This document shows positions 16,558 to 64,000 of a stretch of DNA of 64,000 nt, one piece after another. This stretch comes from Ancylonema sp. Taxonomy: Eukaryota. The notes beneath the pieces are model-generated. The model ran no database searches and was not told the origin of the DNA. It saw nothing but the letters and a program-made list of their open reading frames with translations. Within the stretch, counting starts at the first letter, position 1; each line of letters starts with the position of its first letter. The stretch covers positions 1 through 64,000 of the forward strand of contig JBFLGF010000064.1 in the NCBI GenBank assembly GCA_050230475.1, in the 5' to 3' direction. Position numbers and translations under genes: made by a program.

Positions 16558-17517
16558 GTAATGACTTATCCGTTTATGATGGTAACTCCTCCGTAGAAAC
16601 AAATGAAATCTATAAATGAAATCTCAAAAACACTCTGGATTATTTGCAGTCCGGATGGTTGCGAACTTCGATTATCCCTGAGTGCCTCAATTTCCTGTTC
16701 ACATAAGCAAAGCCTCTCCAGCTTGCTTACTCAAATCTAAGGTCATGTTAAGTGCACAATTGGTAGCTCTACATTGATCGGCACAAAAGAAACCTTTCAG
16801 CAACGATAGGAAATGAATTTTATAGGTATTGGGATGGGATAATAAGAAAATAATGGGAAAATAATGGGCTGCCGCGACATATCTACCCTTAATATGAAAG
16901 CCCTTTCAGAAGTAACCAGGGTTAGATTTTCTTTCTTACGTACATTTTGGCCGTCAGACATTTTATACTTTATCTCTCATTGTTTCTAAAGTAACAGATG
17001 ACTAAATCAGATGACTACCTTACACCCAATAACGGTAAATTATCCGTGTGACACCATTATTTTTACATCATTATTCTGCGATTTTTGTTGTCTTAGGATT
17101 GAATAATATGAAGTATGATAATATAAAAAATCATCTGCAGTTTTTTAAATAACCTCATGGTCTGTTTTAATTCCCAAAGCACACATGTTTTCGTCATATA
17201 ATTATGACACGTGTCTTATGCTTTCAATATAGACCTGGCACCTGCTTTGACCTCATACTCATGTTAGCCTCATTCTCATTGAATAATGAACCCCCCCTGA
17301 CTGCGATATGTCCTGCTTCAATATCCCTTCTAAACTGCATCGCTCAACAAATTAAACTTAATATTAATATATGAATATGAATATTAAAATAGACTTGGAA
17401 TCATTAAACTGGAATACTGGTTGCACTTTCACAACTTCATAGTTGCCTGGTCATCTCGCTCCAACAACAATCAAAAATCATATAAAAATATAATTACATA
17501 TAAAATATATGTAATAT

Positions 17518-17520
<3 letters not shown>

Positions 17521-17570
<50 letters not shown>
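17521..17570. repeat. (TA)n microsatellite
   Basis: Direct reading. Confidence 0.98.
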
Positions 17571-17574
<4 letters not shown>

Positions 17575-32339: not shown

Positions 32340-34580
32340 CCTAAGATGTGTTATGTATCGGAATGTGAAGTTTTATATTTATTTATAAGTTTTATATCTG
32401 TTTCCATACACTTAGATACGTGAAAGGAGGATAAAATTTGTCATTTTCCTGGTGGAAGGTAAAAAATCACGTCATTTTTCTTCCTTCCTACCCTCCTTCA
32501 ACTCTTTACGAGATTCGTGCTTAACCTATGGTTGAATTTAACGGTTTGATCCAATTGCCCCAAAATCGAACGGTGCAAACGAATGATACTTCTTTGCCTG
32601 ATATGGTTGTGATTGGTAGGAGTGGAGGTCTGGAGTTCAAAACATTTGACGAGGAGGAGAGATGAGTTTTCGAAAATAGTGGGTACTAGACGTAGAACGA
32701 GCCACTACTTTCACACGCCGTTTTCCAATTCACTCGAACAGCACTTGAAATTTCTTCTCCTCCTATTTGAAATACAAGGCTGCTGTATATCCTTTTTATG
32801 TGTCTCCATTGCACCTACCTTCCCCCTACATCGTGTGTGTGTGATGAAAGGGGCCTCCCTACGTAGCGTTTTCCTGGTCCCCCTCACCCGAGAAGCTCTG
32901 CAGCGACAGTTGAACCGGCAGGAACCGCCGGGTCAACCGGCAAGAACCGCCAGTCGCCCCGGCAGGAAACGGTCGTTGAAACGACCGGATCCTAAGATGG
33001 AAAAGTCCGAAAAGCGCTTCGCGCGCAAGGGAGCGTGTCGATTCAGATGGAGCTGAAACACGTGTGCCGATGTGTGCGTTGACCGTCGGGGAAGCGCCGA
33101 ACTATCGCCGACATAAATCTCCCGGCATCCCATACGTGGCGGATCCCGTCCACTTCAAATTGGGCGCAACGCGAGTTTTTACCAGTAATGATAAGTTCGA
33201 CACGGAAGAGGAAAGCAAGGGACAGCAGAGCAGACGATTGATTACTCGCCTTATACTTCGACTACGATCAAGTCAGCATTTTAGCATTCGCGTGTTTGAC
33301 ACTTCAGGTATACCTCGTGTATCCCGAGAAGCGGCCCTGCATTCTGCACTACAGCCAACTGCGGAAGCACATCGCAGCAAAGGCTTCGCATTTTGTGCAG
33401 TTTGTCGATGGGTCGAAGGGTCAAGGAACAGAAAAGCCGCGACGGGGATGAGAAACAGAGTGCGGGGCCGCGGCCAGATGCCACGGACGGCTCGGATCAC
33501 TCATTTCGGATGACTGTCGAAAATCGTACGGTCTCAAAACCACGATCCCGTCGTTCTCCGTCCTGTCGTGGTCCCGCTTTCACATTTTTGTACAAAATTA
33601 TTTGTCTCGGAATATAAGCAAACACATAACAGGAATATTAGGCCCAATCTGGGAGGGGCTTAAGAGGTCGATTCTCGATTTAATTCGTATCAGCTGCCAC
33701 TGTATTTTTTTGTGTTTTTTTGCCTAGTAGAATAATAAAAATATTACATAATGATTCCACTATCGACATTTTTTTCTACCATGATTGCTTATGCACACCC
33801 GTTGAGGGTTCATTGAATAACAAAACACAATTACGAAAAAAAAATGAATCTGTGTAAATGTGCTCGTCATTTCCGTACATACCATGTCTTATGACGTAAT
33901 GTGATGTCCGTACATATGATGGCCGTACATATGATGTCCGTACATACTCACTTTGTAGGAAAAAGTGTGGTTGGGGTGAGGGAGAATCCTCAGACTCGGA
34001 AACCGGGCTGACGGATTTCAGGATATAAAAAGTTGGCGGATCTGAAGATGTCTCTTCGAAAACTCGTAACTATTCAGGTCAGAAACCTACCACACAGGTC
34101 ATAAGTCAACCACACAGGTCAAAATTTAACCGCAAAGGTCAAGGCACTTTTTCATTTTTTTGCACCACAAACCTCGATGCAAGTCAAGGCACTTTTTCAA
34201 TTTTTTGACCCTTGGTTAATCCCCCCCCCCAATTTGAATCTTATCAAGCTGAAAATATCTGTACCATACAGATCTGCTCCTTTACATTAAGTTTATACAC
34301 ATATTTTATATGCTAATACATTGTATAATATATGTGACATATTATTTGTTTGACGAGTATTATGCACCCTAGACAACTGAAAGCTGTTTCTGCATGCTTC
34401 ATGATATGTTGTTCACTGCATAATATAATAAACACATAATTCATATCATATGTGAAACGCAGAAAAAGCATAACTCACATATAAAAAACTATGGAATGCA
34501 AAGGACTCATTTCCGTATCTCTGCGTCTTTCCATCATAAGAATGAATACCTACTGCCAGATTTCCAACCAAATTACCTGT

Positions 34581-36045: not shown

Positions 36046-36195
36046 CAGGGTATTATTTTGGAGGGTATTATGATGGAGGGTATTATGTTGGAGGGTATTA
36101 TCTTGGAGGGTATTATCTTGGAGGGTATTATTTTGGAGGGTATTATTTTGGAGGGTGTTGTTTTGGAGGGTATTATCTTGGAGGGTATTATTTTT
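36046..36195. repeat. 15-bp minisatellite (GAGGGTATTATYTTG)x10
   Basis: Direct reading. Confidence 0.92.
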
Positions 36196-39100
36196 GAGGG
36201 GAAACACATTGAGTGTTTTACGAGAAGTAGAGGAGAGGGATAGGGGATATGTAAAAGTATCAAGAAAAGTGTATCATCTTGGAAGGGTAATGTCTTGGAG
36301 GCAATTACATGATTGCCTTCAGACATTGATGGGAGCATTATGTCCGTGACGTACAATAAAACCTGAAATCTAACTTCAAACGTATACGATCTCCATAACT
36401 TCCTCAACTCTCCCCCCCCACCAAAACCTACAAAAGAAAACCCAAAAAAAACATGTGGTCGAACAAAATACGCACTAAAAGAAGCCAAAAATTATATCAA
36501 ACTATTAGTTTCAAAAAAAAAAAAGAAGAAGAGGATATTGAAACAAGAAAAACCGACAAGAGTTCATCTTCGTGTGTTGTTTGGATCCGCCAGATCTCTG
36601 AGTCGTACCTCATTGCGGAGGAAGGGGAGGAGGTGGCGGGGATGACGTTGAGAGTAGTGGAAGCTGGGCAAGACTTACTGGGTAGGAGGGGGGGCGGGGG
36701 GGGGGCGGGGGGGCGGGGGATGGGTGAACACCTCAATTTCAAGCAAAGATATTTTGTTGTTTGCATTTTTAGCAATGGCTTTTTGGACCACAATGAAGGA
36801 TAGAATCAATCTACGCTCGATTTCCGGGTGCTCACCGCATTCGAGGAACCCACTCCTATCTGTAAACTGATCTAGTTCCCCCTTCCTTGACCTCTCAGGA
36901 ATGGCCGCGGAGGTTGTGTCGCTTTTTGTTGCCTTCCAAATGTTCCCCCACTTGACGACACCGACCAAGAAGAAGAGAACGTTTTGAGGTCGTCACGTCG
37001 TTGGAGCGGATAGATTTACGTGTTGCGTGTCGAGTGTTGAGAGAGGCACAATTACGCAGTTGTTTTTTGCACATTTGTGTTCCCTTGTAGCACATTGCAA
37101 AAAAGGATGTCTGCTTTTAGACAACCGTTTGGGTCGAGCACTTTTTTGTAACAACGAAGATAGAAATCGAGATTGGACCAGAGTGTGGACGGATGAGGAC
37201 AGCCTCATCCGTCCTATCTCCAGTCTACGTTCCTTATAATTGTTCAAGTGTTATCGATTAATGAAGAAGGTACACGGCATCAATCATGGAGGAGAGATGT
37301 CGGACCTCGTTTCTTTTGTTTTCCACCTCGTTTTTCCTCTTTTGTGCTTTCTGGTTTGTTCAATACGCGTGATATGAAGGACTAAAAAAGAGTATATTGT
37401 GTTTGTTAAATGGCCGTGGCCGTCGTGCCAATTTAGCGTCCCAAAAAAATGCGTGTTAGACAATCTTTTTTTATCGGGCCAATTGGTCCCTCCTTCCCCC
37501 CATATGTCACATCCCGTCACTCCTTGTCCTACTCGTGCCTAGGTCTACAGGTCCGGGATAGGATCTTGCGAGACACACTTATAGACATGGGTCAATATTT
37601 GGATTTGCACCAGATAATCGGGTTTCGACCATTAGGCCCGATCATTTATGGAACGGCTGTCCTGCTATCACATGAGGGGCTACTATGAGTATAATTACAC
37701 TTTTCCAATGTCGGGTCACCCCAATACATGCCAAGTTGTAATGTACAACGCTAAGATGCTTGCGTAAGGTTTGGTATATGATATGGATGTCACACTAACT
37801 ACAATGCAGAGAAAGATGCATGTATTTGGCGATTTACGGCATTGCGATAATCTGAGAAATTGAAGGATGTCATTGGCTCATTGTGTCGTTATGTAATTTT
37901 ATGTTATATTATTTTTCGTTCTTTGTCTTGGCAAACTAACTGCCTATAATTTCCACCTTTAATAAGCGGGCTTGCGAGTTCGCAAATTGAGGTGTTTGAT
38001 TATGTGAAAATTTGACACCATGGTTACAAGGAGGAAAGCATGAGCTAGCTTTTTCTCTTCAATCAAACGATAGCCAATGGTTTCTCGATGCCCGAATAGA
38101 GTCACGGCGACAATTTTGTCATCACCATGCCAAAATACAAGTGGCAGTTAGAGTATGCTTAAGGATGCGTCAATGTAGATCAGCAGGCGCATGGGCAATG
38201 CATCGTTACCAAATATTGTCGAGTAACCTTTCAAAAAGGTTGCAAGGTACAAAGGCGTCAACAACCCACCCACCCGATTACACTCGCTTAAGCCTTCGTG
38301 AGACTCTACGATCATATGTATATACATCACTAGGCGGAAAGTAGAGGTCTCAAGCACGCATATACAACATCGATAAATGTCGGTTACTACGGCCAACTAT
38401 ATGTACGGACATCCTCTACATAGGGACACCCTTTATAAAAGCACCAAGTGTGGCAAACAAAATCCGTCAGCACGTAATTTTTCCTATTCTAAAGGCACAC
38501 CCTCCATAAAGGCACCAAATCATGGCCGATGAGGAGGGTGCCTCTAGAAAGGTTCCTCTATACGAGGAGGGTGCCTCTATACCACCCTGTCATACTCTAT
38601 GTAAAGCACAAAATGGATGCCAACAAAGCCATCAAGAATTATGACAAGTATCAAAGCGACGTGATAAATTTGTCACTCATTTCTCTCTGGTTATTGTTTA
38701 GGTCCACTTCCATTTCTATAAGTGGAAGTCGACTGAACCACTTCAAACTTCTTCTCACTTCTTGGTGTCGTCTTGTTGCAACTCGCTGTTGGTTTCTGGA
38801 GTCGAATCACATTTTCCCTTTGCTTCCGCCGTGCCTGCAGTGACAAATGTTGCGGCGCAGGTGCATGTGCGTATGTGAACATAATTCGTTTCAGATTATG
38901 GAGACGCCATGGTCGCAATTTACCGATTACTATACGCATTTTGCGCTCCATCATTAATGATTCTTTGCAACAATGCATGGAGACGAATAAATGAGGTGCG
39001 ATATGGTAGCAAAGGCGTATGTGCATAACATATAATCATGCCTGTGGACATACACACACTACCACACACATGCAAGTATACCTACACAGATATGCACATA

Positions 39101-39466: not shown

Positions 39467-40113
<647 letters not shown>

Positions 40114-44820: not shown

Positions 44821-45655
44821 GCTTTTGGCGAGTAGTAGCTACGGCAACCATCGTTGATAAGTCACATACAACGCTTGAATTACATTCTTGTGTTGTCGGT
44901 ACCTTCACCCAACTACTCTAAACTGACCAGCGGAAGAGCTTCTTCACATTCAGGTCTCCAAGGAAAAGTTTACCGAACCCGAGATTTTTTTTCTGGAAAA
45001 CCCTTCTCATTGATTGTTTACCATACACCATTGCCTCGACATTAAACAACGGTAGCCCGATTCGGAAACCCGAGATGGAAACCTACGACCATCATTTATG
45101 GACAACCAAGGCTACTGACTCTGAGCATGCTCTAAGTGACATACAATATGAAAGAGATCTCTTGCATATTGCTACCAATATTTCCGACGACTACACGATT
45201 TACAAGATTTGGTAAGCTCCAGCTCATGCAGCAGAAAACCGAGAACGAGTTTCGACAACTCCCTCCGGACCTCAAATGACGCCGAGACGAACATCTGGCG
45301 GTCATTCGAGTTCATCGACAACGCGAGTGGAACATAATACAACCAGCTCATCGCACCACAGATTGGCGAAAGGTGAGGTAACCTGGAAAAATCGGATGTT
45401 TCACCAATTCCAGCGACAACTTCCAGCACCCCTTGCAGTACGACCAATCCCGGCATACACCAATATGTCGGTAACCAATACTCCTCAGTACCTCGAGATG
45501 ACAAAGGAAGAACACCAAAGATATATGTAGGAAGCAGCATATGCCACATCTGTTGGCATTTTCAACTCACTCATAAGCCAGGAAAAGGTGAAATCACGAG
45601 ATGTGGCATCGACAATACTCACCAAAAAGGCTGTCACTTTCTCACCTGTCGTTGC

Positions 45656-48600
45656 TATAGGAATTATATCGGATAGCCATGTTTGCTAGTGTGCTAGTCC
45701 GGACTACCGGTTAGTGTAACCGGTAGGATTCCTAGGGTGTGCTTATATTGAGGGACCGGACTTCTGTCCGGGCACCCGAATACGACGTTTCGATTGTGCC
45801 GTTTGTAGCACGTGCGGTCTAGATGGTTCCGAATCTAGACGTTATGTCTTGTCAGACTGTCCGGCATGTGCCGTTGTCAGGATCTGACTCTTGTTGTGTT
45901 TTGATAGGCCGACGGTCCGTCGATACGACCGTCGGCACCGCTTTGTAGATTCTGCTTTGGACGAGGCATCGTGGTATACCTACACGATGCCGACCATTCA
46001 ATAATAATTCTCAACACAATACTTGTCATTGATCATATTTGAGAGAGACGAAGTTTCTTGTACGGAAAGATATTCTCGACGCGATCTTGCACACCTATCA
46101 CGTAACATCGCTGCTAAAAGGTTATGGGCCCACAGGCGGTCCTAGTTAAAGACGCTCTGTCAATAACTACAGGCATTCCCCACGCGATTCGCTGCTAAGA
46201 AGAGACTTTGAGGTTGGGGTTATTAAGTACTGCACGTAATCTTTCGAATTGCGCTGCTAGTGACTGAGGTGTGAGCTGCGCTGCACGAAACACGCTCAAG
46301 GAAGCAGTGAGAGCTGATCATCAGATATATATAGCTGCTGCCTAACATGACGGAAAAATCATACATTCCGGTCTTCACAGGAGCAGACTATAAAGGATGG
46401 GCTTTTAAAATTAAGTTCGGTCTGGCTGACAAGGAGCTGCATGACAGTGTCATGGATTGGGGCAAATCCCCGAGGCAAGCAAAACCTGTCGTGTCTCCAC
46501 CAATCACACAGGATGAGCTCGATACGCTGGATGCTGCGGACATCGCTAGAACGGTCACGGCACGCACCCAGCTCATCGGCGACAGACTCTCCTTCGAGAG
46601 GTCTGGTCGAAGAAGAATATCGCTGCGATGGCGTACATCGTCAAACACCTCCAGACGGGGGAGCTGACGCACGTACGAAATTGCGAGACGGCAGTGGATA
46701 TGTGGGACGCCCTGAAAGCCTTCTACGACATTCAGGGAGCCATCGAGATCGCCAACGCTGAGGCAGAGCTCACGGCGATTATCATGGGAGAAGCGGAGGA
46801 TCTGAGCGACTATGTTAAGCGACTTCAGGAGCTGCACGATCGTCTGGGGCATCTGGGAGGAGCCAGTAAGGCCTGCGAAGCAGACGATCAACTTTCTGAA
46901 TTCCCTTAACACTCGCTACAGCGCGCGCGTGGAGAGCGTGATGTCTTGGGCAGTTTTTGCGCCAACACTTTCACGATCCCTCAGGCCGTAACATTTTGTC
47001 AGCTGGCGATCGACGGGAGGTCGCAACGACCGGAAGAGAGGGGCGCTGCCGGGAGGGCAGCAGGCCAATTTCGTGGGAAAAGGGGTTTACTCGGGCAGCT
47101 CTGGAGCTGGCCCAAGTGGACCAAGTGGGAGTGGCGGTCCCGGAAGTCGCGACATGTCGAGAATTCAGTGCTACGGTTGCAACTAGCATGGTCACCTGAA
47201 ATCGGACTGCCCTTCACGTCTGCAAATGAGGTGTCATGGCTGCAACCAGATCGGCCACAAACTATCGCAATGCGGACTGCAACGGCATGGGGGAGGTGGA
47301 AGATCGGCTGGCCAGGGAAGTGGCAGTCCGAAACTCAAATGCAGATAATGTGATAAGCTCGGGCACACATTGGTAGAATGCATGAAGCGTAAATCTGACC
47401 TCGCATTGGCTGCACTTGATTCTAATCTTCGTGATCAAGCTCAGGCTAGACTTGCTGCACGTCCAGACACACCCTTCGATGCATCCAAATCCCTTGCCTA
47501 TGCAACATTCTCATCTCACGCACGGATTTCCATGGCAGCTGAAACTGATTGCTCGCATCTGTGGCTTGATTCAGGCTCGACCGATCACGTCTTCATTAAC
47601 AGAGACCACTTCGTCGAGTACGACACCAACGTCCCGATGCAGCATTCATTCAACCACACGGCTGATGGCACGCCTCATAAGGTCGAGGGGACAGGCTTCG
47701 TGCACGTTCGAGTGAAGAACGACGACTCCTTCTTCGTCGTCCCTCTCACTGCACGTCCCTACATTCGCTGCGACCCTGGTGTCCACCGACTGCCTCGTCC
47801 AGAGAGCTGAGCTTTGCCCAGACCCCACATGGTCCTAACTGACTAAAAATGGACAAAAATGGGCTGATGTCAGCAGGCAGAGTGGTCTGTCATTGCTGCA
47901 TGCATCTATCATCATGCCTGGTTCATCATCTGGTCTGCAAGCAAATCTGTCCATAGGCATGCTCTGGCATGGCAAGCTGGTTCACCCTGGTATACCAGCC
48001 ATGTCAGACATGGCCAGACGTGGGGACATACCAAGACTGAGTCAGGAAGAGTTGACTGAGGTTAGAGATTGTGAGATCTGCTGTATGGGGGACAGAGGCG
48101 GCATGCAATGACTAGCGATGTTGTGGCCACTATGCCGAAAATGGGGAGGTTGCATCTAGATCTGATAGGTCCTTTTGGTGTCAGATCAATGCACGGAGGG
48201 TTTGATTATGCTCAGACAGGTCACTTAGACAGGGATAGAGGTCAATTCTAGACTGTCGACAGTATCTCTTCTCAAGCACAAGAGCAATGCTCTCAGTCAA
48301 ACGCGCATCACTGTACAGAAACTAGAGGTTGAGTCAGGACTGCCGTTAAAGTCGATCAGGACAGATGGAGGAGGGGAATATACCAGCAAGGAATGGAAAG
48401 GCTATTGTGAGGATAAAGGCATCAAACATGAATTGATTGCCCCCTATAGTCCTCAGCAGAATGGTATGTGTGAAAGGCTGAACCGAACATTGATGGAGAA
48501 TATGAGATGTTTGCTGATGTGGTCTAAAGTGCCTAAATCATACTGGGATGTGGCACTGATGCATGCAAACTGGCTAAGGAACAGAACCCCCACTAGTTCA

Positions 48601-51600
48601 TTGACAAGGGGGATACCTATTGAAAAGTGGACGGGACGCCAAATCAAACTGGACAGAAGTCACACATTTGGCTGCCTAGTGCAGTTTGAAAGTTGGGCAT
48701 TATAAAAACAAACAAGGGGACAAGTATGCTGCCAGGACTGCTTTTGGGGTATTTATTGGGCTGGCAGCAGATCAAGCTGGCTACAACATCTTCGACCCAC
48801 TCAGAGCTGGTGTGATGGTGCGGACAGACGTCCGTTTCTTTGAGGAAGTGCCGGGGTACCCGAGACTCACGGGGGGGAGAGCTCCCCAGGTCGAGGCCAA
48901 AGCAGATATGAACATTTTCTCCAGCTATTCCCCGACACGGATGATGAGCCTAAGGCTAGAGGGGTGACAGGGCAAGCAGCAGTGATAGCAGTACCAGCAG
49001 CAGTACCAGCAGCAGTACCAGCAGCAGAGCCAACAGCAATGCCAGCAGCAGCAGCCCACAACGACCCAAGAGCCCAGATCCCAGCACTACAATTTCCGCC
49101 ACCACCAGCTGCTGAGGTCCCCATCGCTGTGATTGAGCTGTCTGACAGTCAATCTGGGATCAACAACGTAGGAGTGGCAGGCGATGAGGAGGAAGTTCAA
49201 GGAGGGGGTGAAGAGGGGGGGCAAGGGTGAATGCTGGGAGCATAGCTGAGAGAGTAATGGGAAGGAGGAGAGCAAACTTTGCCCACTTTGGGGATGTCCT
49301 CTGATACGATAGGGAGGGGTTCGACGACCAGGCGTTGGAAGCAGCCATTCAGGATGAGGAGTGGGAGGCTACATGCTTCTTCACAGGCTTCAACGGCCCC
49401 TCTGACTTTGGATTCTGCATGGTGGCCATGTCTGCTGACTCCTCCGACCCTCTGACGCTGAACGAGGCCATGACGAGGCCAGACTGGGATCAGTGGTTAG
49501 CTGCTATTCCAGGAGGAGCTGAAAAGCTTGGGGGAATTCAACACTTTCGAGGTGTGTGAACTTCCACCCAGGTAAAAGGGCTGTGGGGTGCAAATATGTA
49601 TTCAAAACAAAATACACACCCACGGGACCCCTTGAAAGATATAAAGTCAGACTGGTCGCCCACGGTTTTCTACAACAAGAAGGAGTTGATTATAATAAAA
49701 TATTCGCACCTGTAGTAGATAGTACCTCTATATCTCTTCTACTAGCCATTGCGAATTAGGAGGGTTGGGAAATTGAACAGATGGATGTGGTGACTGCTTT
49801 CTTGCACGGAAGACTGACCGAAGAAGTATATATGAAAATTCCACCATTCATGGAGAATTGTGGGAGGGGCTGAGGGAAAAGTTTTGAGAATGAGGGGGGC
49901 ACTCTACGGACTGAAACAAAGTAGCAAGGTCTGGGGTGAGATGTTCACAGCCTTCATGCTCACTATAGGGTTCAAACAATGCATTATGGACACATGCATA
50001 TACCCAGGGGCACAGGACAGTCACGGATCATAGTGGGGATACACGTAGATGATCACGTGATAGTTGGTCCTAACACCATGGTCATTAAAGCATTCAAACA
50101 GGAACTATTTGGGAAATTCAAAATGAAGGATCTTGGGGCCCTAACCCATATCCTGGGGGTGGAAGTGAAAAAGGGACAGACAACAGGGGGTGCTCTCGCA
50201 CGTTGCATCAGGGAGGGTTCATAAAACAGGTTCTAGAACGTTTTGGCATGGCAAACTGTAATCCTACAAAACTACCCTTACCACCTGGACTGTCATTTCA
50301 CCAAGACGATGAACCTCTAACTCCCCATACACCTGAACAGATAACTGAATTCCGGGGAAAAATTGGGTCACTCATTTATGCAATGAAACACACCCAGACC
50401 GGATATTGCGCATGCACTGGGCGTACTGACAAAACACATGGGAAATCCTGGGACTGCTCACATCAAATCCTTACACCAACTGTTCAGATATTTAAAGGGT
50501 ACAGTGGATCACGGAAATATGCTACGTGAGGCAGAGGAAGGAAGTTAGAGATCAGGGGGGGGTACTGTGATGCTAGTTGGAACAGCTGCGCAGTATGACT
50601 GGGAAGTCGGTCACAGGGGGTGGGTCACTACTGTTGGGGGGACTGCTTTAAGTTGGAAGTCACAGAAACAGTCTACAGTCGCACAGAGTACAGCAGAGGC
50701 TGAATATATTGCTGCCTGTTAGTGTGTCTAAGGAATGCTGTTACCTTGAAGTCGCTCCTGCATGAGCTCAATCCCTAATGAAATTACAGTTTACAGTGAC
50801 TCAACCTGCACTCTCCATGATCCAGGAACCCAGTCCAGCGCCAGAAAGCCAAGCACTTCAATGTGGTATACCACTGGGTGAGAGAGTGCCACAGAATTGG
50901 CAAGCTGAAGTATATGTATCTGGCAGGGGCCAATCAACCAGCCGAATGTTCACTAAGGCTCTTCCACAGGTCTTACTTGACAGACACGGAAAGTCTATAG
51001 GTTTTGGGAGGGTTAACTGAAATGGGGGTGCACACATGAGGTTCTGGGGATTTTCGGATGCCATGCTATGTTTGGCAGGGGGTGTATGTTCTGTTATTCT
51101 TCTTGCAGAAGGCACCTGTGGAGGTCAACGCTGCTTGTCTATCCAGCTAAGTCACCCCACTCTTTTTCTGCCCTGAAAACACTTAAGGACACCTGAAAAG
51201 TTGCAGATCTGCTGCATCTAGAGTTGTGAGTTGTTCATGAATTCTGGCATTGTGTTTCCATTTATACTATGTATGTTGTGTGAAAATTTCAGTTGTTTTG
51301 GTGAAGTTTTGAGAAAGTTATGAAGTTTTGAGAAAGTTGTGAAAGTTTGAGAAAGTTGTGAAGTTTTGAGTTTTTCAAGTTATTCGGAGAAAACTGCAGA
51401 AAGTTGACTTGTTGGTCATTTTTGTATTGCCCTAACTTGTGGTTTTGTTTGTATGTTCAGGGCTCCGGCCCGAAAAACGACTAAGGATCTGGAGCTATCG
51501 ATTTCTGGAGTTCCGATGGCTTCCGATCGGCTGTTATATTTTAGATAGGGCCCCCTAGAGCATTTGTATGCTAGGGAAGACTTTACTACCCCATGGGCTA

Positions 51601-52149
51601 TGCAATGGTTTCGCCGTGACTTAGCTGAGATAGGGAGTCCCTTGGTGCTGACTCAATGCCAAACTGGCATGGCATCCGAGGGGGTGTGTAGAATTATATC
51701 GGAGGATAGCCATGTTTGCAAGTGTGCTAGTCCGGACTACCGGTTAGTGTAACCGGTAGGATTCCTAGGGTGTGCTTATATTGAGGGGCCGGACTTATGT
51801 CCCGGCACCCGAATAGGACGTTTCGATTGTGCCGTTTGTAGCACGTGCGGTCTAGATGGTTCCGAATCTAGACGTTATGTCTTGTCACACTGTCCGGCAT
51901 GTGCCGTTGTCAGGAGTCAGGATCTGACTGTTGTTATGGTTATGATAGGCCGACGGTCCGCAGATACGACCGTCGGCACGCTTTGTAGATTCTTGTTTTG
52001 GACGAGGCATTGTGGTATACCTACACGATGCCGACCATTCAATAATAATTCTTCCAACCACAATACTTGTCATTGATCATTCTACGAAGTTTCTTGTACG
52101 GAAAGATATTCACACGATCTTGCACACCTATCACGTAACATCGCTAAGA
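45656..52149 (+). mobile_element. Ty1/Copia retrotransposon (Copia-2), full length, degenerate, nested in G1 gag
   Basis: LTRs 45656-46119 and 51687-52149; perfect TSD GTTGC (45651-45655 and 52150-52154); PBS 46120-46133; PPT ~51678-51686. gag-pol fragments 46347-51020 are homologous to Copia-1. Confidence 0.97.
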
Positions 52150-52479
52150 GTTGCGAGTCATGCACCAGGTCCCACCATCCTTTTACCACCCAAAGAAGGA
52201 GAGAAGTGCGCCGTTTGTTTCCAACCAAGCCATATCAACCAAGCCATATGGAAAAAAAATCTCCGCGATCACCTGACCAAGGAAGAATGGCAGAAACAAC
52301 AAGCGGACATTCCAATGGTTTTGCAGGGCAGGGTACCCGCAATTTACTCTACAGTCAAACCCGAAAACACCAAACCATTCATCGAACCAGACGCACGCAT
52401 CACCACAAATTGGACGGTGCGTGTGATTGAGAAAAACAAACAAATCCTCTTCATCGAAGGAGTCGAACCAACAGGAGAC

Positions 52480-52803
52480 ATGGTGCTCGATACCGGGTCA
52501 GGAGATGATGATGATGATGATGATGATGTATGATCGGTGTCACAACTCGGCATCACCTAGACGGACTTAGACCCTGGAGAATAATATCTCACATCTTCGG
52601 GACAGACCAATACATCATTGGGCGTAACCAAACGAGATTACGAGATCACCATTGGACAAGGCAAGTTCAAAACCACAGTTCCAGTCCGTCTCACCTTGTC
52701 ACCTTCAGTCAAGTACTCGATCTTCCTTGGCAATTCTTTCATTGTTCCCATTGGCGGGATCGTCGACAATTGGGGACACAGATTCCACTATCGAGTGGAC
52801 TAG
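52480..52803 (+). pseudogene. G1 retropepsin-like aspartic protease, disrupted
   Basis: MVLDTGS, then SPSVKYSIFLGNSF; frameshift at a (GAT)7 run. Confidence 0.75.
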
Positions 52804-53298
52804 GAAATCAAAGGTGACATAATGGTGTTTGTTCCCATCATCATCCATGGGCTAAATGCAACTCAGAAGTTTAGTATCGAAAGTTATGGGGTGGTCTACA
52901 TGAACCAAGGAATTTCACACGACACCACATACACCACCATGGACACCTTTTTGAAGAACGATGACGAAACCATGTTCGCCACGAACGAGGATGAAGACAT
53001 TCTTGCAAATTTTGAATTTATGGTGGCGCAAGAGGGATACGAGCACAGTATTGCCTCAGAGACACCATCACCTGATCCGGCCACATTGCCTGTTTATGAC
53101 CCACAGACTCAGGAATGGGAACTTGACACCATTCACTATCTGGCAACCCGCAAACACTCTGAGATCCGGGACGCACACAAACTCAAGTTAGTCACCGCAA
53201 TTTAGAGCTTGGCATAAATCAATGAGGCAAATGCAACCACAAATGTTCACAAACTTAGATTGGATAGGAGCATCATGATCTAGCAGGCCATCGACATT

Positions 53299-54372
53299 GT
53301 GTACAGACACACCGTTCCACCCTTGTACTCCGAATGGCAGGGAACACCAATTCGAGACGCGGTCCCCATCACCCCTCGACACAATGTTCGCTTTAACTTT
53401 GGAGCTTTGCAACATGCACTTAACGTGTGGGATCCTTTTGTAGGAACCAGTTGTGCTGGGTTGACGATCGTCGTGAACGCCAACTACAAGTGCGGTGTCT
53501 ACATCAACAACGACAAAGATCCAAGCACGACACCCGGGACAACTGCCGTCCAGTGCAATTCGAGAATTCGACACCAGATTTCCTTATTTCACCACATTTC
53601 TCAGATTTCCAATGCTCATCTTGACGCGTTCATCGCGGACAAAGGACCTATCGAATACATTTTTGTAGGGTGGGAGTGCCAAATGGTGAGTAAGGTAGGG
53701 AACCACCAAGGGTACAAGGACGAACCCCACCCGTACTTCTTCGATCTCATCCGCTGCATTAACCACCTGATCAAAGTCCAGCCTTACCCACCCATCTTTG
53801 TCTTGGAGAACACTTACCCTTTCGACGACTTCCCGAAGGAAATCCAAGACACCACAGTCCTCATCAAGTCATTTCTCGGATACCCAGCAGTTTTCGATGC
53901 ATGCAGTGTTGGCACTAACGCTCACCGAGTACGATGCCTCTGGAAAAAAATCATACCACCTCATATCCTGGAGTTGGAAATACCCGCGGTTCCACCACTG
54001 AATCCCTTGGCCAAAATTACGGACCTGAACCATCGACCCACAAGTGTCACCACCAATGACACACCACCCCGCGCATTGGTCGATAAGATTGGACAACCAT
54101 GCAAGGCTATGCCCACCATTGTTTCTTACCCTAGCAATTTTCAGTACCGATATCAGGGAGGATCACCAGGCCCGGGTATGGTATACAACCTGCATTCAAA
54201 ACAATGGGAGACACCCAATATCTGGGAACGCGAAAGACTCATGGAATTTAAGGATGGCGATACGGCTGCTCCAGGCATCACCGTTAGTGCACGTTGCCAA
54301 CTCATTGGTCACACCATGAACAAGAACATGTTAGTATGGTTAGGCGGCATTCTTATGGCATCTCACAATTAA
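53299..54372 (+). CDS. C5 DNA-cytosine methyltransferase domain within Gypsy pol
   Basis: Ordered motifs: I VWDPFVG, IV IFVGWECQ (Cys at 53677), VI FVLENT, VIII AHRVRCLW, IX ERERLMEF, X RCQLIGHTMN. Confidence 0.88.
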   Translation: MYRHTVPPLYSEWQGTPIRDAVPITPRHNVRFNFGALQHALNVWDPFVGTSCAGLTIVVNANYKCGVYINNDKDPSTTPGTTAVQCNSRIRHQISLFHHISQISNAHLDAFIADKGPIEYIFVGWECQMVSKVGNHQGYKDEPHPYFFDLIRCINHLIKVQPYPPIFVLENTYPFDDFPKEIQDTTVLIKSFLGYPAVFDACSVGTNAHRVRCLWKKIIPPHILELEIPAVPPLNPLAKITDLNHRPTSVTTNDTPPRALVDKIGQPCKAMPTIVSYPSNFQYRYQGGSPGPGMVYNLHSKQWETPNIWERERLMEFKDGDTAAPGITVSARCQLIGHTMNKNMLVWLGGILMASHN

Positions 54373-54749
54373 CCCTCGTATATCGACACCCTTCCTCTGT
54401 CGGTTACATCACACCCTCGTTAGGAAACAGACCCCACCACTAAGACTATTGAGCGGGCGGGGGACACCTATCATACCCCCAAGCAGTACCATACACTGCA
54501 TTATGACACCAAGGAGCAGAAATTCTACAACAACCATGAATCAGCATTTACCCTGGATCCTGCTCAACAATAATATACGACCGGCGCCAGTCCTTTCACC
54601 CAAGAACTCCTTGCAGCTGCGGAAGGTAATTTGCCGGAGATTGAGAATGACCTTTTCGACCCCCCCGAAGAATTACCACCTACCACCGCGGAGAAAGAGT
54701 TCCAAAGGGAGATCGGTGACCATCTCACCCGGGCAAAAAAGGCCGAATT

Positions 54750-55300
54750 TTTAGCGTTGCTTGAATGAAATCGAGATTGCTTCGCATTTAGCCTTGAAGA
54801 ATTGGGAACTTCTAACAACACAGGTATGGAATTACCCCTCGAGACCATTGGATCCATCTTTTAGGGATCTCTCAAGCTCAGCCAGACAGAGTGGGACTTC
54901 GTGGAATCCAATTGCAAAAAGCTACATGACCTTGGCATGATTTGGCCTAGCTCAGGCAACACCAAGTATGCATCAGCCACAATGGTAGTCCGCAAAAAGG
55001 ACGAAGACGGACAAGACACATACTTCCGCCAATGTGGAGACTACGGACCTATCAACAGCCACACTGCATTGGATAGATACCCCCTACCCAAGATCGAAGA
55101 TGTTTTTGTTGAGATGCAGGACGCCAAGTCCTTCATTAAAATGGACCTGCGACAAGGATATCACCAGATCCCCATCAGGGAAGAGGTAAGGCAAAAATAG
55201 CATTCTGGGGGGCTAATTGGAAGCTCTGGGAGTGGAATGTGATACCCTATGGCCTAAAAAATGCACCACCTTTCTTTCAGCGCACCATGGACGCTATCCT
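54750..55300 (+). pseudogene. G1 reverse transcriptase, N-terminal half, truncated before YxDD
   Basis: YASATMVVRKKD, DYGPIN, YPLPKIED, DLRQGYHQI and AFWG..LWEWNVIPYGLKNAPPFFQR, with stops and a frameshift. Confidence 0.92.
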
Positions 55301-56840
55301 CACCAATGTTGATGGTGTATGCTTTCTTGGTGGTCCCCAAAGATTGTTGGTATTTGCCATCTGAAGTTACGTATTCTTTTCCAAGATCAAGGTCTTGTGA
55401 TGTAAGCTTGAGTTGTTTGGCAAATTTGGTACCAATGGTCACGTTCTCTGCACCTGAATCGAATATTGGTAGTGAATGTTTTTCTCCACCAATAGTGAGT
55501 ATGGCTTGACTGTTGTCAGCGGTTGGTTTATGCCAATTGGTTGTCAATCTGGCGTTGCAAATCACCGGTGGTTTGGTGATATGGTGTTTTGTGGTCCCAT
55601 TACAGAGAGTGCCATCGGTGGTTGTGACATCTCTACTTGTCGAGGGTAATCATGTGGTGGTGGTATGTCACCCTGAGGTGAGTCAAGTAACAGATTCCGT
55701 CGTCGTGGATAGTTGATCTTTGTATGTCCTGTTTGTCCACAAAAATAACATCGTAGTTCTTTTTCAATGACATCGTATGGTTCTTCAAAATCAGGTCTAA
55801 TTGGTGCCTGATGTGTTGTAGACTCGAGTGGTATCGAGGTACATGAAGGTGAGAGGTCTGGTTGGTTATTGATGGAATACTCTAGGTTGTGTTCAATCTT
55901 CGTGACTGTTGTAGTCGTTCGGAGCTTTGTCACAAGTTTTTCCAGCACTCGTTCAAGTTGTTCATCAGAAATGTGAGCAAATCTTGTCGGAATGTCCGAC
56001 CGAGGTGCCATAACTGTGTAAGCTGGTGGATCAACTTCTTCAGTCTTAGGCTGCGCGTATCGTATGAAAGCCAATGTAGCTTTCCACACCTCCTCTGCTT
56101 GAAGCAACTAAATGGTGAGATGACGAGGGATGTGCTCCTGCCACTCCTGCCTCCTGTATGTTTGTAACATCTGGTTGACATCTGTTTGTTCCCGCATATG
56201 AGGTGGTAGTAGGTGTACCATTTGGTTTTGGTCCTCAATCTGACTTTGAATGAGTCCCAGTTTGTAAAATCGACAATCTTGTCCCAGATCTGTTGTTATG
56301 GAAAGCATATATTTCTCTGATGTTAATTTGTTCAACATATATTCAATTTTTGATGCTCTTTCGACCCAATGTCCATGATTATAAACGTCTATTATTGAAT
56401 CGTGATATGAAAAGTGTATATCGTCAATGAAGTAGTAGTCAAGAAAGACAAAGGATGTACCAAAAAAAAAAAAACTGGTCACACTATTTGTTTCAAACTT
56501 TTAATTTATCGAAATCAAGGTCTTATGCGGTTGGATTGAAGTAGTATTTGCAGATTGAGTCTCTGCTGAGATACCAATATTATATCTATCACACGTCTCA
56601 GCGGTCTGGTGAGATTCACTACTTAACGCCGAGGGCGAGCTAACAGATGGTTTATAGCACAAAAGTCTGTGAAAATACTATAAAGCAAACAAGATAGTCT
56701 GGTGCAGACCAGCAAGGTTAGCAGCCGTAAGAGTTACTTTCGAAAGCAAAGTATCGACGGCGCGTCGATAAAAGATGCTGGCTCAGAAAGAGCGTCAGCA
56801 GACAGGTGTTTACAACAAATGCTGGCTCGGAGCGGGCGAC

Positions 56841-58345: not shown

Positions 58346-58651
58346 TCCTTAGCCATGGCAGTTGTGCCTTTAGTCAGATTCCGTTGTGTACTTAGCCGCC
58401 CTTGACTTAGTTATCCCACATTTTTCCTAGAGTCGGCTAGGGTCGACTTCCCTATATGTAGCCGATAGGAATGCCTCTAGAGAATTCCTATCAACTCATG
58501 TACTTGCACCTTGTTGTGCCTACCATATCAACGAAACCATTTTGATCATCGGCTCATTAGCCTCCTTCCTATCGGCTCTTTTCGCCATTGCCTTGTGTGT
58601 GCACTTGCAATTATAGATTGCTAGGAGTCCCATTATATTACACTCCTAACA
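58346..58651 (+). mobile_element. Partial LTR of the 20896-21310 family, inserted in G3 integrase
   Basis: Reverse-complement homology to 20896-21075; terminus TCCTAACA at 58651. Confidence 0.8.
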
Positions 58652-60020
58652 CAAATTCTCCTATGAACTCGTTGCCTTGATCTGTGATCACCTCTCTCGG
58701 TGCGCCATACGTGGACAAGATTTGAAAACAGCAAAGCCCACCTCGCCAACTTCCCCGATAACTTCTTTGTCGACAAGATCCACTTGATGGGCTCGTGGTC
58801 GGTCACTAGTGTTAACTTCTTCCCGATCACGTACTGTTTGAAGTGTGATGTTGCCCACACTGCACCCAAGCACTCCCCATAATAGTTATTTTCAGCTGGG
58901 TTCCAACTCCTGGTGGCATAGGCCACAACATAGTCCAGCCCCCGCTCGTCCTTCTGTCCTAGGACTGCCCTCGTCCCCTTCTGACTCCAGTCAATGGCAA
59001 GGTAGAAATGCTTGCTCCCACCTAGTCGCCTCAGCACTCTAGCCGAACACACCGCCTCCTTCACCTTCAGGAAGGCCTCCTTCCGTTCCCCCCCCCACTC
59101 CTAGACCTGTCCTTTCCGCAACAGCTTGTTGAGCGGCACAAACTTGCGATAGTAGCTGATAGCCCCAAAACTCCCCTGAACGAAGACAAGTCTGTAGGGG
59201 CGGGAAAATCCCTGACTGCCTTCACCTTCTCCTCTTGCGGTTGCAACCCTGCCGCAGTGATCCTGTGCCCCAGGTGGTCGATGCTCTCTACAACAAACAT
59301 ACACTTCCCCGGGTGCACCTTTAGCCCCGCTGATCTGAGTCGTCTAAAGAACACCTGCAGATGCCCCACATACACCTCTAGCGTGCAGCTCCACACGATG
59401 ATGTCATCGATGTAGCAACTTGCAAATGTCAGCCCCCCCATAATGTGGTCCATCCGGCGGTGAAAGTAAGGCGGCGCGTTCTTCAGTCCAAACGGCACCA
59501 CGCACCACTCCCACAGCATCCGCCTGGCTCCCCAAAATGCTGTCTTGGCACGATCCTCCTCCAGTAGTGGCATCTGATGGTACCCCGACCTCAGATCCAT
59601 CTTGCTGAAGATCTTGGCCCCCTTCATATCATCAAAGATGTCCTCTATCAATGGCAACGGGTACTTGTCGAGCGGCGTCAGCGCGTTGATCGGCCGGTAG
59701 TCCCTGCACTTTTTAAAGTCAGTGTAGTTCCCCTCATCGTCCTTCTTCTTCACTACCAGAGTAGCCGAGAAATACTTGGTCTGGCGTGATTTCCTGATGA
59801 ATTTCAGCATCTCCACCTTCTCGCACTGCTTCTCCACAAACTCCCACTCTTTCTCCCCTAGCTTGTGCGGCGGCTTGTACACTCTCCTCTCTGACACCAC
59901 CCCGATGATCATAGGGTCTCCCTTGAACTGCTCCAGATCCTCCATGCTGTAAGCAAATCGATCATTGTGCTCCCTCAGCAACTCCAGCACCAGCAATTGA
60001 TCCCTCTCCTTTAACCCCCC
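58652..60020 (-). pseudogene. Gypsy pol G3: RT, RNase H and integrase fragment
   Basis: RT 59996-59067 (DLRSGYHQ, PFGLKNAP, YIDD); RNase H 59064-58730 (LAIDWS, ECLGAVWA, LVTDH, LARWALL); integrase piece YGAPREVITDQGNEF after an internal deletion. Confidence 0.95.
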
Positions 60021-60814
60021 CCCAACCTTGATTTTTTTTTAAATTCTCAAAAAAATCAGGTTTTGGGTTTAAGGTCCCACCCTCGATCTCACTCCTACCC
60101 GTAAGTGTCTTCTACCATTCCTTCCAAACTTCCTTTGTTAACCTTTTTTTTTTTTTTTTTTTTTTTAATAATGATTTTTTGAAGTTTCCTGTGGGACCCC
60201 AACCGCCCCAATCCCAACCTCCCCCAACCGCTGCCTCCCCCCCAGAGCAGCCATCTGCAGCTCTGCAAACCTCTGTTCTGCTCCAAATTGAGGTTGCAAT
60301 GGTGCTAAAGAAAGCCCTTGCTCCCTTCTATGTTGTGTCAAACCCATAACATCCCCCCCCAAAACCCCTGCCAGTAAACCCAAATCGTGGGTTTAAGATC
60401 CGGCCACATCCATTTTACACTTCTAGTAGTAAAAAGGGCTGGAAATATTTAATTTTGAGTTGCTGGGTACATGGGATAGCTTATTGGAAACCCCTTCCCT
60501 ATCCTCACTACCATTTTGAAAAGCTACTACTGATTCCAAGACCCTAGGGTTCAACAACTGTTCTTCTAGAATCTGGCCAGAATTCTTTAACTTGTCGAAT
60601 TGCGGTTTAGAGTCGGCCGCCCGGAATGTTGTTCTTGACTTGTACTTGTCTCTGAATTGGGTTGGTTTCAATCATTGCTCTCTAACCTACTTCTGAATTT
60701 ATTGTTCACTAAGTTCTGGATGTTGATCATATCTTCATAATGTCACAATCTGATATCGATGACTGTTGGTCATGTCTCATAATGTCACAATCTAGTATTG
60801 TGCTGCTCTCACTG

Positions 60815-60959: not shown

Positions 60960-62089
60960 ATCACCGGGGCAGCATATCAGGGATAGGCCTTTAAGGTTAG
61001 GTTCGGCCTAATTGAGAAAGAGCTGCATCGGTATGTCGTCGACTTCAACGGGAGGACGAGAAAACCTCGCCCGGCTGTTATTGAGCCGTTAACATCGGCA
61101 ACCGTCAATTCATTACCTAGTGATGTTGTAGCTCGAAGAGCTGTTGCTGATGCATACCAGTAGAGTGTTGATGCTAGAAATGTGCTTGTGGATGCTTGGG
61201 ATGCGCAAGATTTAAAGGCGTAGGCCTACATTGTCAGGTTCTTAGGTCCGTCAGAGCAGGCGCATGTTAGAGATTGTGATTACGCTTATGATATGTGGAA
61301 TAACCTTGCATCATTTTACGAAGTCCAAGGCGGTATTGAAGTAGCTAATGCCCTGGCTAAATTGAGTGCTACGGTAATGGGTGAGGTTGAGGACTTACAG
61401 GAGTTTGTCAAACGCCTGCAACTTATCCTTGGCGAGTTTTCGCATCTCAAGAAGCCCGTCAGCGAAGCCGACCAGGCCACCAACCTCATCAACTGCCTCA
61501 GCTCGCGCTACGACTCCATGGTGGAAGTCGTCCAGAGCTGGGCGGAGTCCCCAACCTATCTCTACACCATCCCCCACATCTCCTCGGCCTTGCAGCGGAA
61601 GGACACGAAGCTCATTGTCAGCGCGCGGAAGCGTGGAGAGCCTCTCGGCGGTCCGCAGGCTCATTATGGCGGATCAGGAGGAGCCGGACCTAGCGGCAGG
61701 CCCTAGCAAGGGCCAGATTTGAGCAACGTGCGCTGCCACGGTTGCTAGCAAATCGGCCACTACCGTACTAGCTGTCCGAACGGAGGGGGAGGTGGCCAGG
61801 CTCGAGGAGCTGGACTACAGAAGAAATGTCACAACTTCGGCGAGCCAAGCCACCTCATGCGAGACTTCCGACGACCACAGCGGCAAGACGGCTAGCAGTC
61901 TGGAGGGCAGGGACGACATCAAGGGGGGCCGCAGCAGTTTGGTAGAGGGCGAGGTGGAGGTCAGCAATACGGGAAGAATCGGCAGCAAGGAGGACAACAA
62001 GAGCAAAATGCCCTGTCGTGTACCTATTGCAAGCGACCCAGGCATGAGCATGAGGCCTGCACCGTTATGCGGCAAGATGCTGCAAGCCA
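60960..62089 (+). pseudogene. Copia-4 gag fragment between two Ns
   Basis: AFKVRFGLIEKELHR and MWNNLASFYEVQGGIEVANA are homologous to Copia-1 and Copia-2 Gag; three degenerate knuckles. Confidence 0.88.
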
Positions 62090-63245: not shown

Positions 63246-64000
63246 ATGGCATTGGCTGACCACCTCTACATCGATCGATATGTCGACACCAAACAAAAGT
63301 CACTCAGTGCTTACCATTGGATGAGAAACACCGACTATACCAATCTTCGATTATGGCGCCGAAAATGTCACCATCGGTACCAAATTTTATAAACAGCTTA
63401 AGCTCACCTCACACGACCTTGACCCTCACGAATAATATGTACTTCGGATGGAAAATACCAACAATCTTTGGGAACCACAAAGAAGGCATCTACCATTACT
63501 ATCGAACATGGCAAGAACCAAACTCCGGTAAATGCCAAGCTCCACCTTACACCTTCCGACAAGTATGATGTTTTACTCGGAAGCACTCTCCTCGGACCGA
63601 TCGGAGATATTTTCATGGAGTCAACATTTTCACTACATGTTCGACTAGAACAAACAAGGAATACACCGTGCCTCGGTACCAATCAAGTATACTTTACCAC
63701 ATATAGCATCAATCCAGTGCCATTATATGGAAGATAAAGTTACATATACCTCGGCACATACCTTCATGCATATTCCAAACGAGGATTTGTTACATTCAAC
63801 AAAAGAGGAAGATGTTTTGACCGAACTTGAATTCCGACTCATGGAAGAAGAATTATACAGCGAACCACAAAACTATCGCGACGCACTAGTCGTCACCGAG
63901 TACCAACCTCACCTCAAAGAATGGGAAACCAACACCATGGTTTATTTGGAAACAACCAAACACTCCGACATACGTAAAGATCATCGACCACAAATCAATG
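63246..64000 (+). pseudogene. Gypsy G5 protease and post-protease linker (G1/G2 family), running off the window
   Basis: PIFDYGAENVTIGTKF is nearly identical to G2. TPSDKYDVLLG and KEWETNTMVYLETTKHSDIR match G1 SPSVKYSIFLG and QEWELDTIHYLATRKHSEIR. Confidence 0.85.

What the first reader, a model, noticed from the sequence alone, without database searches (positions are those of the whole stretch)
53299..54372. Gypsy retrotransposon encoding its own C5 DNA methyltransferase inside pol
Seen: a domain with C5-MTase motifs I, IV, VI, VIII, IX and X in order. It lies on the same strand between the protease (~52480) and RT (~54750) of LTR element G1. The catalytic loop reads GWECQ rather than the usual PCQ. 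Known: Gypsy pol is normally PR-RT-RH-IN, and DNMT capture by retrotransposons has been reported in charophyte algae and dinoflagellates, so the concept is not wholly new. Inference: the enzyme is cleaved from the polyprotein, packaged, and methylates new cDNA (self-marking or camouflage). Whether this family is described cannot be judged here.
Basis: partly seen in the sequence, partly recalled or inferred. Interest (0 to 1): 0.9.

Follow-up and report, generated by a model that had tools for sequence, protein, structure and literature searches.

The report
Gypsy retrotransposon carrying DNMT3-like methyltransferase
A broken copy of a multi-copy jumping gene carries, between its protease and reverse transcriptase, a domain predicted to fold like the DNA-methylating enzyme DNMT3, which in intact relatives likely marks the element's new DNA copies; the design was described in one green alga, and named relatives found here come from three more green-algal genera.

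Summary
Confirmed, with corrections. 53401-54369 encodes a C5 cytosine-methyltransferase domain (Pfam PF00145; family profile and predicted fold closest to DNMT3A), in frame between a Gypsy protease and RT. GWECQ is a family trait (62 of 126 relatives covering the site; all 126 keep the Cys). This copy is dead: 12 stops, a Copia inserted in gag (the nearby LTR pair is the Copia's), RT cut off, and a compensated frameshift pair inside the 'intact' DNMT frame. It is no one-off: 560 relatives, diverged copies in the host's runs, dN/dS 0.09-0.17 in relatives. Relatives hold the domain in two positions (PR-DNMT-RT; RH-DNMT-IN). New here: in one sister clade a stop plus CAR-YY readthrough signal separates Gag-PR-DNMT from RT (23 of 25 loci, three lineages), and the window's closest relatives end just after the DNMT, so the enzyme may be made at Gag rather than Pol levels. 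The kind is known (KnitGypsy-Dnmt3, PMC5890265), and this scan noted similar elements before in moss DNA. Methylation of new cDNA is inferred, not shown; no CG depletion is seen in this copy.

The parts
45075..45650 (+). 5' part of the Gypsy gag, upstream of the Copia insertion (decayed)
   Evidence: Weak match to the gag of the related minus-strand element at 56006-56392 (E 5e-4); its frame runs into the target duplication and matches the frame after it
45656..52149 (+). Copia element inserted into gag (not part of the DNMT element); LTRs about 45656-46115 and 51686-52149, 90.8% alike
   Evidence: 5-bp target-site duplication at 45651-45655 and 52150-52154; copia gag, Pol_BBD and rve domains inside; LTR match
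52150..52479 (+). 3' part of gag with a degenerate CCHC zinc knuckle (52207-52251)
   Evidence: Sequence; intact relatives have zf-CCHC before PR
52480..52800 (+). Aspartic protease, with three stops and a GAT-repeat expansion
   Evidence: DTG motif 52483-52503; family PR profile hit 52543-52779, E 1.4e-9; stops at 52531, 52558, 52582
52804..53400 (+). PR-DNMT linker, conserved in a second element of the window
   Evidence: 32% identity, E 4e-13 to the frame near 63660-63990; stops at 53203, 53215, 53281
53401..54369 (+). DNMT3-like C5 cytosine methyltransferase domain, motifs I-X in order; catalytic Cys in GWECQ at 53668-53682
   Evidence: PF00145; family profile best PDB hit DNMT3A E 8e-25; model pLDDT 84, Foldseek top hit DNMT3A E 4.5e-16
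53490..53584 (+). Stretch read out of frame in this copy (compensated frameshift pair between motifs II and IV)
   Evidence: Relatives match it in a shifted frame, 4 of 5 tested
54370..54423 (+). Two in-frame stops just after the DNMT (54370, 54421); candidate natural end of ORF1
   Evidence: P0012 (86% identical) ends at the codon before 54421; 9 of 9 window-nearest relatives reaching motif X end 0-39 aa after the domain; no CAR-YY signal here
54700..55302 (+). N-terminal two thirds of a Gypsy RT, with stops, a frameshift near 55190, cut off before YxDD
   Evidence: RVT_1 E 0.003; family RT profile 54823-55197 and 55185-55304; RT tree groups it with PR-DNMT-RT elements

Best explanation
This is a dead copy of a multi-copy Ty3/Gypsy retrotransposon family that carries a DNMT3-like cytosine methyltransferase domain between protease and reverse transcriptase, and in active members the domain is likely translated with Gag and protease, packed into the particle and predicted to methylate cytosines of the newly made cDNA before or at integration. 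Shown: the domain, its place and frame, its presence in diverged copies and in hundreds of relatives, an invariant catalytic Cys, purifying selection in related lineages. Inferred: catalytic activity, protease release, packaging, the cDNA as substrate, and the benefit (a new copy that arrives already marked as host-like or pre-silenced). Partly shown: in one sister clade the DNMT ends ORF1 and RT follows a leaky-type stop; for the window's own clade an ORF end after the DNMT is likely, but how RT is then made is unknown.
For: Pfam, PDB-profile and fold searches all give a DNMT3-type C5-MTase. 560 proteins at E<=1e-3; of 230 examined, 38 have PR-DNMT and/or DNMT-RT order, 126 have RH-DNMT and/or DNMT-IN order, 62 are DNMT-only fragments and 4 lack it (rows are not independent). 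Uninterrupted Gag-PR-DNMT-RT-RH-IN polyproteins exist (P0023, P0155, P0171, P0174 of Closterium). All 126 of 150 hits that cover motif IV keep the Cys. dN/dS of the DNMT is 0.09-0.17 in 5 of 5 unsaturated pairs of diverged or intact loci. Diverged contigs in the host's runs bridge linker-to-DNMT and DNMT-to-RT, and a second study covers 53516-54009. Related retrotransposon DNMT3s from Symbiodinium methylate CG de novo in yeast (PMC5890265).
Against: No activity data for this family; the Klebsormidium Gypsy enzyme gave no methylation in yeast (inconclusive). No CG depletion in this copy (CG o/e 0.72, GC o/e 0.74), while two Copia elements without DNMT show 0.57 and 0.61; related loci are CG-poor but so are their flanks (0.34-0.45). 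80 of 126 relatives have Glu instead of the usual Pro before the Cys, with an untested effect. The window's clade is divergent (about 30% identity to other members) and known only from short fragments, and selection on it was not measured. Among decayed copies of one family dN/dS rises to 0.39-0.47 (2 pairs).
Confidence: 0.6

Rival explanations
1. The enzyme is active but works on chromatin rather than on cDNA in the particle: it methylates the integration site or existing copies (self-restraint that spares the host), guided in many relatives by the C-terminal PHD finger.
For: PHD fingers end many relatives of both orders; de Mendoza et al. raise host-protective slowing of transposition as an option; an ORF1 location would give surplus enzyme.
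Against: In 126 of 230 proteins the domain sits among RT, RH and IN, the enzymes that handle the cDNA; the PHD is attached to IN, not to the DNMT; no methylome data.
Confidence: 0.2
2. In this divergent clade the domain is no longer a DNA methyltransferase; it is kept as a nucleic-acid- or SAM-binding module, or acts on RNA.
For: Long branch; Glu before the Cys; an extra residue in motif I shared with clade members P0091 and P0118; no CG depletion; negative yeast test for the Klebsormidium enzyme.
Against: Cys (IV), Glu-Asn (VI) and R-x-R (VIII) are kept across the clade's fragments and motif X Arg in P0012, P0019 and P0100; the fold matches DNMT3, not DNMT2.
Confidence: 0.15
3. One-off capture of a host DNMT3 fragment, or a bacterial or phage methyltransferase, in this single copy.
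For: Weak Pfam score; one full-length relative sits in a cyanobacterial genome bin (L083).
Against: Hundreds of retroelement-borne relatives; diverged host copies; no intron; no match in 50,697 phage records; viral contigs give only short motif-IV matches, E>=3e-10; L083 is itself a PR-DNMT-stop-RT element on a 9.3-kb contig, so likely a eukaryotic contaminant; HhaI scores 39 bits against 90 for DNMT3A.
Confidence: 0.03

Closest known systems
KnitGypsy-Dnmt3 of Klebsormidium nitens (de Mendoza et al. 2018, PMC5890265; read: main text parts 1-5 of 7 and keyword searches of the held supplements; Fig. 4c and the supplementary figures not seen)
   Same: Gypsy retrotransposon in a green-lineage host; intronless DNMT3-like domain in the polyprotein region; key residues kept; purifying selection on the domain
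   Different: Domain order in the Knit element could not be read, so whether it is PR-DNMT-RT or RH-DNMT-IN is open. The Knit repeats are described as DIRS-like, whereas relatives here have plain direct terminal repeats (L005, L027). The Knit DNMT is said to share the ORF with RT and RNase H (peer-review file), whereas one clade here has a stop between DNMT and RT. No Knit sequence was in hand for direct comparison.
SymbioDIRS-Dnmt3 of Symbiodinium (PMC5890265)
   Same: DNMT3-type domain in a retroelement Pol, found in two domain orders; shown to methylate CG de novo in yeast
   Different: DIRS elements with tyrosine recombinase; here Gypsy RT, RNase H and DDE integrase in relatives
EpiLTRs of Cymbomonas and Euglena (bioRxiv 10.64898/2026.05.21.726589; read: passages and Discussion)
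   Same: Gypsy-like LTR elements with a cytosine methyltransferase
   Different: Their DNMT is sister to DNMT4 and comes with a DAM and a chromodomain; here the DNMT is DNMT3-like, with a PHD in many relatives and no DAM seen in the Pfam scans
Type I stop-codon readthrough (UAG CAR YYA of tobacco mosaic virus; PMC3542737, PMC2754532, passages) and the GAG-PROT / RT-RH-INT split of Ogre elements (PMC6317226, passages)
   Same: A first ORF with Gag and protease, RT made at lower level behind a stop or an intron
   Different: Here the first ORF would also hold a DNA methyltransferase; the signal is seen in a sister clade, not in the window's copy

Membership tests
C5 cytosine methyltransferase, DNMT3 type | PF00145 hit above the curated cut-off | tested here: met
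   22.8 bits against cut-off 22, E 7.1e-5; marginal for this copy, 30-46 bits for several relatives
C5 cytosine methyltransferase, DNMT3 type | Motifs I-X in unpermuted order with catalytic Cys, motif VI Glu and motif VIII R-x-R | tested here: met
   unpermuted, unlike DRM2, whose chain matches the profile's N-terminal half with its C-terminal part
C5 cytosine methyltransferase, DNMT3 type | Pro-Cys dipeptide in motif IV | tested here: not met
   Glu-Cys here and in 80 of 126 relatives, Pro-Cys in 33 of 126
C5 cytosine methyltransferase, DNMT3 type | Closest solved sequences and folds are DNMT3A/B | tested here: met
   Profile: DNMT3A 90.6 bits, DRM 56.6, HhaI 39; all 29 listed Foldseek rows are DNMT3A/B/C
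C5 cytosine methyltransferase, DNMT3 type | Nests with eukaryotic DNMT3 in a phylogeny with host DNMT3, DRM and bacterial enzymes | not tested
   No host DNMT3 or DRM sequences were in hand; trees hold retroelement domains only
C5 cytosine methyltransferase, DNMT3 type | Methylates cytosine in DNA | not testable with these tools
   Needs an assay
Ty3/Gypsy LTR retrotransposon | Order gag-PR-RT-RH-IN with RVT_1-type RT | tested here: met
   gag knuckle, PR and RT in the window; RH and IN follow RT in relatives such as P0023, L001, L003, but are missing from this truncated copy
Ty3/Gypsy LTR retrotransposon | Pair of direct terminal repeats | tested here: inconclusive
   None for this copy; found around relatives L005 (307 nt, 94%) and L027 (342 nt, 92%), 2 of 19 loci of 6 kb or more, most too short to hold both ends
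KnitGypsy-Dnmt3 | DNMT3-like domain in a Gypsy polyprotein region | tested here: met
KnitGypsy-Dnmt3 | DNMT in the same ORF as RT and RNase H | tested here: inconclusive
   Same frame here, but stops at 54370, 54421 and 54571 lie between; some may be natural. Continuous in P0023, P0155, P0171, P0174; split by a conserved stop in L001-L005, L008 and kin
KnitGypsy-Dnmt3 | DIRS-like arrangement of repeats | tested here: inconclusive
   Not testable on this truncated copy; two relatives show plain LTR pairs
KnitGypsy-Dnmt3 | Sequence kinship with the Klebsormidium copies | not tested
   No protein named as Klebsormidium came up

The most novel reading that the evidence does not exclude
DNMT3-bearing Gypsy elements are a large, old clade spread over chlorophytes and streptophytes that has held the enzyme in two positions. 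In some lineages, including this one, the methyltransferase closes the Gag-protease ORF and RT lies behind a stop (a leaky UAG-CAR-YYA signal in one clade), so the enzyme is loaded into each particle at capsid-protein stoichiometry, far above RT, to methylate the new cDNA inside the particle.
Probability: 0.35. Interest if true: 0.75.

Novelty: new variant of a known kind. Interest (0 to 1): 0.5.

Why it matters
A transposon that carries the host's own silencing enzyme is an unsolved puzzle since 2018: camouflage, self-restraint or protection. The relatives found here make it testable. There are intact natural elements (L001, L003, P0023, P0174), two domain orders, Glu-Cys and Pro-Cys variants of the active site, and a clade with a readthrough-type stop that predicts the enzyme is made at Gag level. 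The window's own copy is only a fossil of a divergent sub-clade.

Tried and rejected
Single-sequence PDB search: no hit at E<=10; the family profile was needed. Word-indexed protein search among longer proteins: none, weak evidence given. Phage records: no match. Prokaryotic genomes: 5 loci, four short Streptomyces matches and one likely contaminant. CG depletion as a sign of self-methylation: not seen. Readthrough signal in the window's own DNMT-RT linker: absent. DNMT upstream of the minus-strand RT at 59256-59945, the window RT's nearest neighbour in the tree: none found at E<1e-4. The idea that the 45661/51691 repeats are this element's LTRs: rejected. Expression: no RNA holder listed, which says nothing either way. 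Summed contig depth was not used as copy number. The A/B split of the DNMT tree is clean (quick tree, SH-aLRT 99) and for RT (100), but locus L037, of PR-side order, fell with the B rows. The stop clade has only 84/62 support, and P0165 was labelled by its end point, not by seen DNA. No host assembly was available, so there is no genome-wide copy count. The host taxon was not established; a green-lineage host is inferred from named relatives. Literature searches found no paper on two domain orders or on readthrough in DNMT3 Gypsy elements; subscription papers, the figures of PMC5890265 and bioRxiv supplements were not seen and may hold this.

Full report
What is in the window. From 52150 to 55197 one reading frame on the + strand holds the end of gag with a worn zinc knuckle, an aspartic protease, a linker, the methyltransferase domain and the start of RT, broken by 12 stops. 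It has no single-sequence PDB hit, but a profile of 59 relatives ranks DNMT3A first (E 8e-25, 90.6 bits), then DNMT3B/C, DRM (56.6) and HhaI (39).

This copy is dead. A Copia element (45656-52149, 5-bp target duplication, LTRs 90.8% alike) sits inside gag; gag continues upstream of it and matches the gag of a related minus-strand element. The LTR pair near the finding thus belongs to the Copia, and no LTR pair of the Gypsy element was found. The RT shifts frame near 55190 and stops at about 55302, before YxDD, head-on against the protease of a related minus-strand element. Within the DNMT, about 53490-53584 matches relatives in another frame (4 of 5 tested give a separate hit), so the open frame is partly an accident of two compensating shifts. 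The stops at 52558 and 52582 differ in all contigs laid there and are private to this copy.

It is a family feature. Contigs of two runs of one sample (which may be the window's source) and of two metagenomes of another study lie on the stretch: 1020, 4640, 63 and 26 records, counted over 51900-55400 and so including Copia LTR pieces. Diverged contigs bridge the linker into motif I and the DNMT into the RT start. A second element with the same protease and linker begins near 63260 and runs off the window. An exhaustive search gave 560 relatives at E<=1e-3 and 273 at 1e-10. Of the best 150, 126 cover motif IV: all keep the Cys, 62 read GWECQ, 80 have Glu-Cys and 33 Pro-Cys. GWECQ is thus normal for the family. 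In loci with readable frames the DNMT shows dN/dS 0.126, 0.110, 0.093, 0.141 and 0.172 (5 pairs), against 0.02-0.045 for RT where unsaturated; 2 pairs of decayed near-copies give 0.39 and 0.47, and 2 pairs were saturated. Selection on the window's own clade was not measured.

Two domain orders. Among 230 proteins, 38 show PR-DNMT and/or DNMT-RT (order A, as here), 126 show RH-DNMT and/or DNMT-IN (order B), 62 are DNMT-only fragments and 4 lack the domain (many rows are near-copies). Named members are Closterium (A; P0005, P0060, P0174, P0176), Monoraphidium neglectum (B; P0203) and Cymbomonas tetramitiformis (P0232; its match and Pfam gaps fit order B, not classified); most rows are unnamed. 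DNMT and RT trees both separate A from B (SH-aLRT 99 and 100), with the window on the A side (half of the B rows were left out to save time). With other rows, L037 (order A) fell among B, so the split is not perfect. The window and eight fragments form their own well-supported sub-clade (100/99), about 30% identical to other A members. Without DNMT-less Gypsy outgroups and host DNMT3s I cannot tell one capture with relocation from two captures.

A stop between DNMT and RT. Of 54 metagenome loci, the 37 with long matches were mapped, and 25 of these hold both the DNMT end and the RT start. 23 of the 25 have a stop followed by CAR-YY in the linker, 4 with the exact CAR-YYA; shuffled linkers give such a motif in 635 of 5000 cases. 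Where the frame could be read, the stop is in frame, and in L001 and L003 it is the only stop between a long Gag-PR-DNMT frame and a 1047-codon RT-RH-IN-PHD frame (in L003 a frameshift also lies further upstream). The loci are not independent: they fall into three lineages (L001-type, L008, L004-type; 45-67% identical between lineages), L017 has a degenerate form and L037 no stop. UAG CAR YYA is the type I readthrough motif of tobacco mosaic virus and also works after UAA (PMC3542737). Other A members (P0023, P0155, P0171, P0174) have one continuous ORF. The window's linker has no CAR-YY signal, but 9 of 9 window-nearest fragments that reach motif X end 0-39 residues after the domain, against 20 of 121 other rows. 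P0012 (86% identical) ends exactly where the window has a stop at 54421. These fragments come from short contigs (531-5212 bp) and perhaps decayed copies, so this is a hint, not proof. If true, RT would need readthrough or an Ogre-like intron (PMC6317226).

Mechanism. Most likely the domain is translated with Gag and protease, released in the particle and methylates cytosines of the fresh cDNA, so that the new copy arrives marked. Shown are the domain, its position, residue conservation and selection in relatives; activity, release, packaging, substrate and benefit are inferred. Against it: no CG depletion in this copy (CG o/e 0.72, GC o/e 0.74; Copia neighbours 0.57 and 0.61), and the Klebsormidium Gypsy enzyme was inactive in yeast, although DNMT3B was too. 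Rivals are action on chromatin (0.2), a non-catalytic or RNA-directed role (0.15) and a one-off or prokaryotic insert (0.03; no phage match; only short matches in viral contigs).

Comparison and novelty. Gypsy elements with DNMT3 are described from Klebsormidium nitens (PMC5890265) and cited as streptophyte Gypsy-DNMT3 in a 2026 preprint; PMC12344493 mentions DNMT3 in retrotransposons in passing. Passages of PMC6338049, PMC6431247, PMC2754532 and bioRxiv 10.1101/2021.11.30.470311 added no domain order. I could not see the Knit domain order or sequences, so membership in that family is open; the element works like it at least in design. My nine searches found nothing on two domain orders, chlorophyte members of this DNMT3 type or a readthrough stop behind the DNMT. 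Earlier AI notes of this scan report similar elements in moss DNA; I formed my reading before seeing them and did not test their host assignment. Verdict: a fossil copy of a divergent sub-clade of a known kind, with a new and testable twist in its relatives. Interest 0.5.

Noticed in passing
L001:5083, L002:2081, L003:4661, L008:4509, L005:11720, L083 (after the DNMT): Conserved in-frame stop followed by CAR-YY(A), a tobacco-mosaic-type readthrough signal, between Gag-PR-DNMT and RT-RH-IN-PHD in three lineages of related elements; deserves its own test.
   Followed up: yes
window 63260-64000 (+): A third related element (protease and PR-DNMT linker) runs off the window's end and likely continues into another DNMT.
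   Followed up: partly
window 55303-56500 (-): gag, zinc knuckle and protease of a related element abut the truncated RT head-on; contigs of other copies continue differently at 55303.
   Followed up: partly
window 58633-60040 (-): Gypsy RT-RNase H, nearest neighbour of the window's RT in the tree (48% identity), with no DNMT detectable upstream and a long T run there; possible loss of the domain or a rearranged copy.
   Followed up: partly
window 9-6582 and 45656-52149: Two related Copia elements (69% alike internally) with LTRs 86% and 91% alike; their LTR stretch draws far more contig depth in the host's runs than the Gypsy part. A further Copia gag lies at 61224-61706.
   Followed up: partly
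L083 (contig CADCWO010000201.1): A Gypsy PR-DNMT-stop-RT element on a 9.3-kb contig inside a cyanobacterial genome bin; likely eukaryotic contamination.
   Followed up: partly
P0233: A 2101-aa RT-RH-DNMT-IN polyprotein whose DNMT matches the family profile only weakly (88 bits); perhaps a separate capture.
   Followed up: no
P0020, P0069, P0203: Order-B relatives carry further add-ons: G-patch (P0020, weakly P0069) and a Tudor-like domain after the PHD (P0203, below cut-off).
   Followed up: no
window 19312-20526 (+): Intronless 404-aa frame with an O-fucosyltransferase domain (PF10250, E 2.9e-12), probably a host gene.
   Followed up: partly
window 31821-32372 (-): Frame without Pfam hit whose end resembles a plant membrane-protein family (recalled, not tested); possibly the first exon of a host gene.
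   Followed up: no
window 36047-36200: 15-bp tandem array of about 10 copies; also long AT dinucleotide runs at 17514-17585 and 39747-39888.
   Followed up: no
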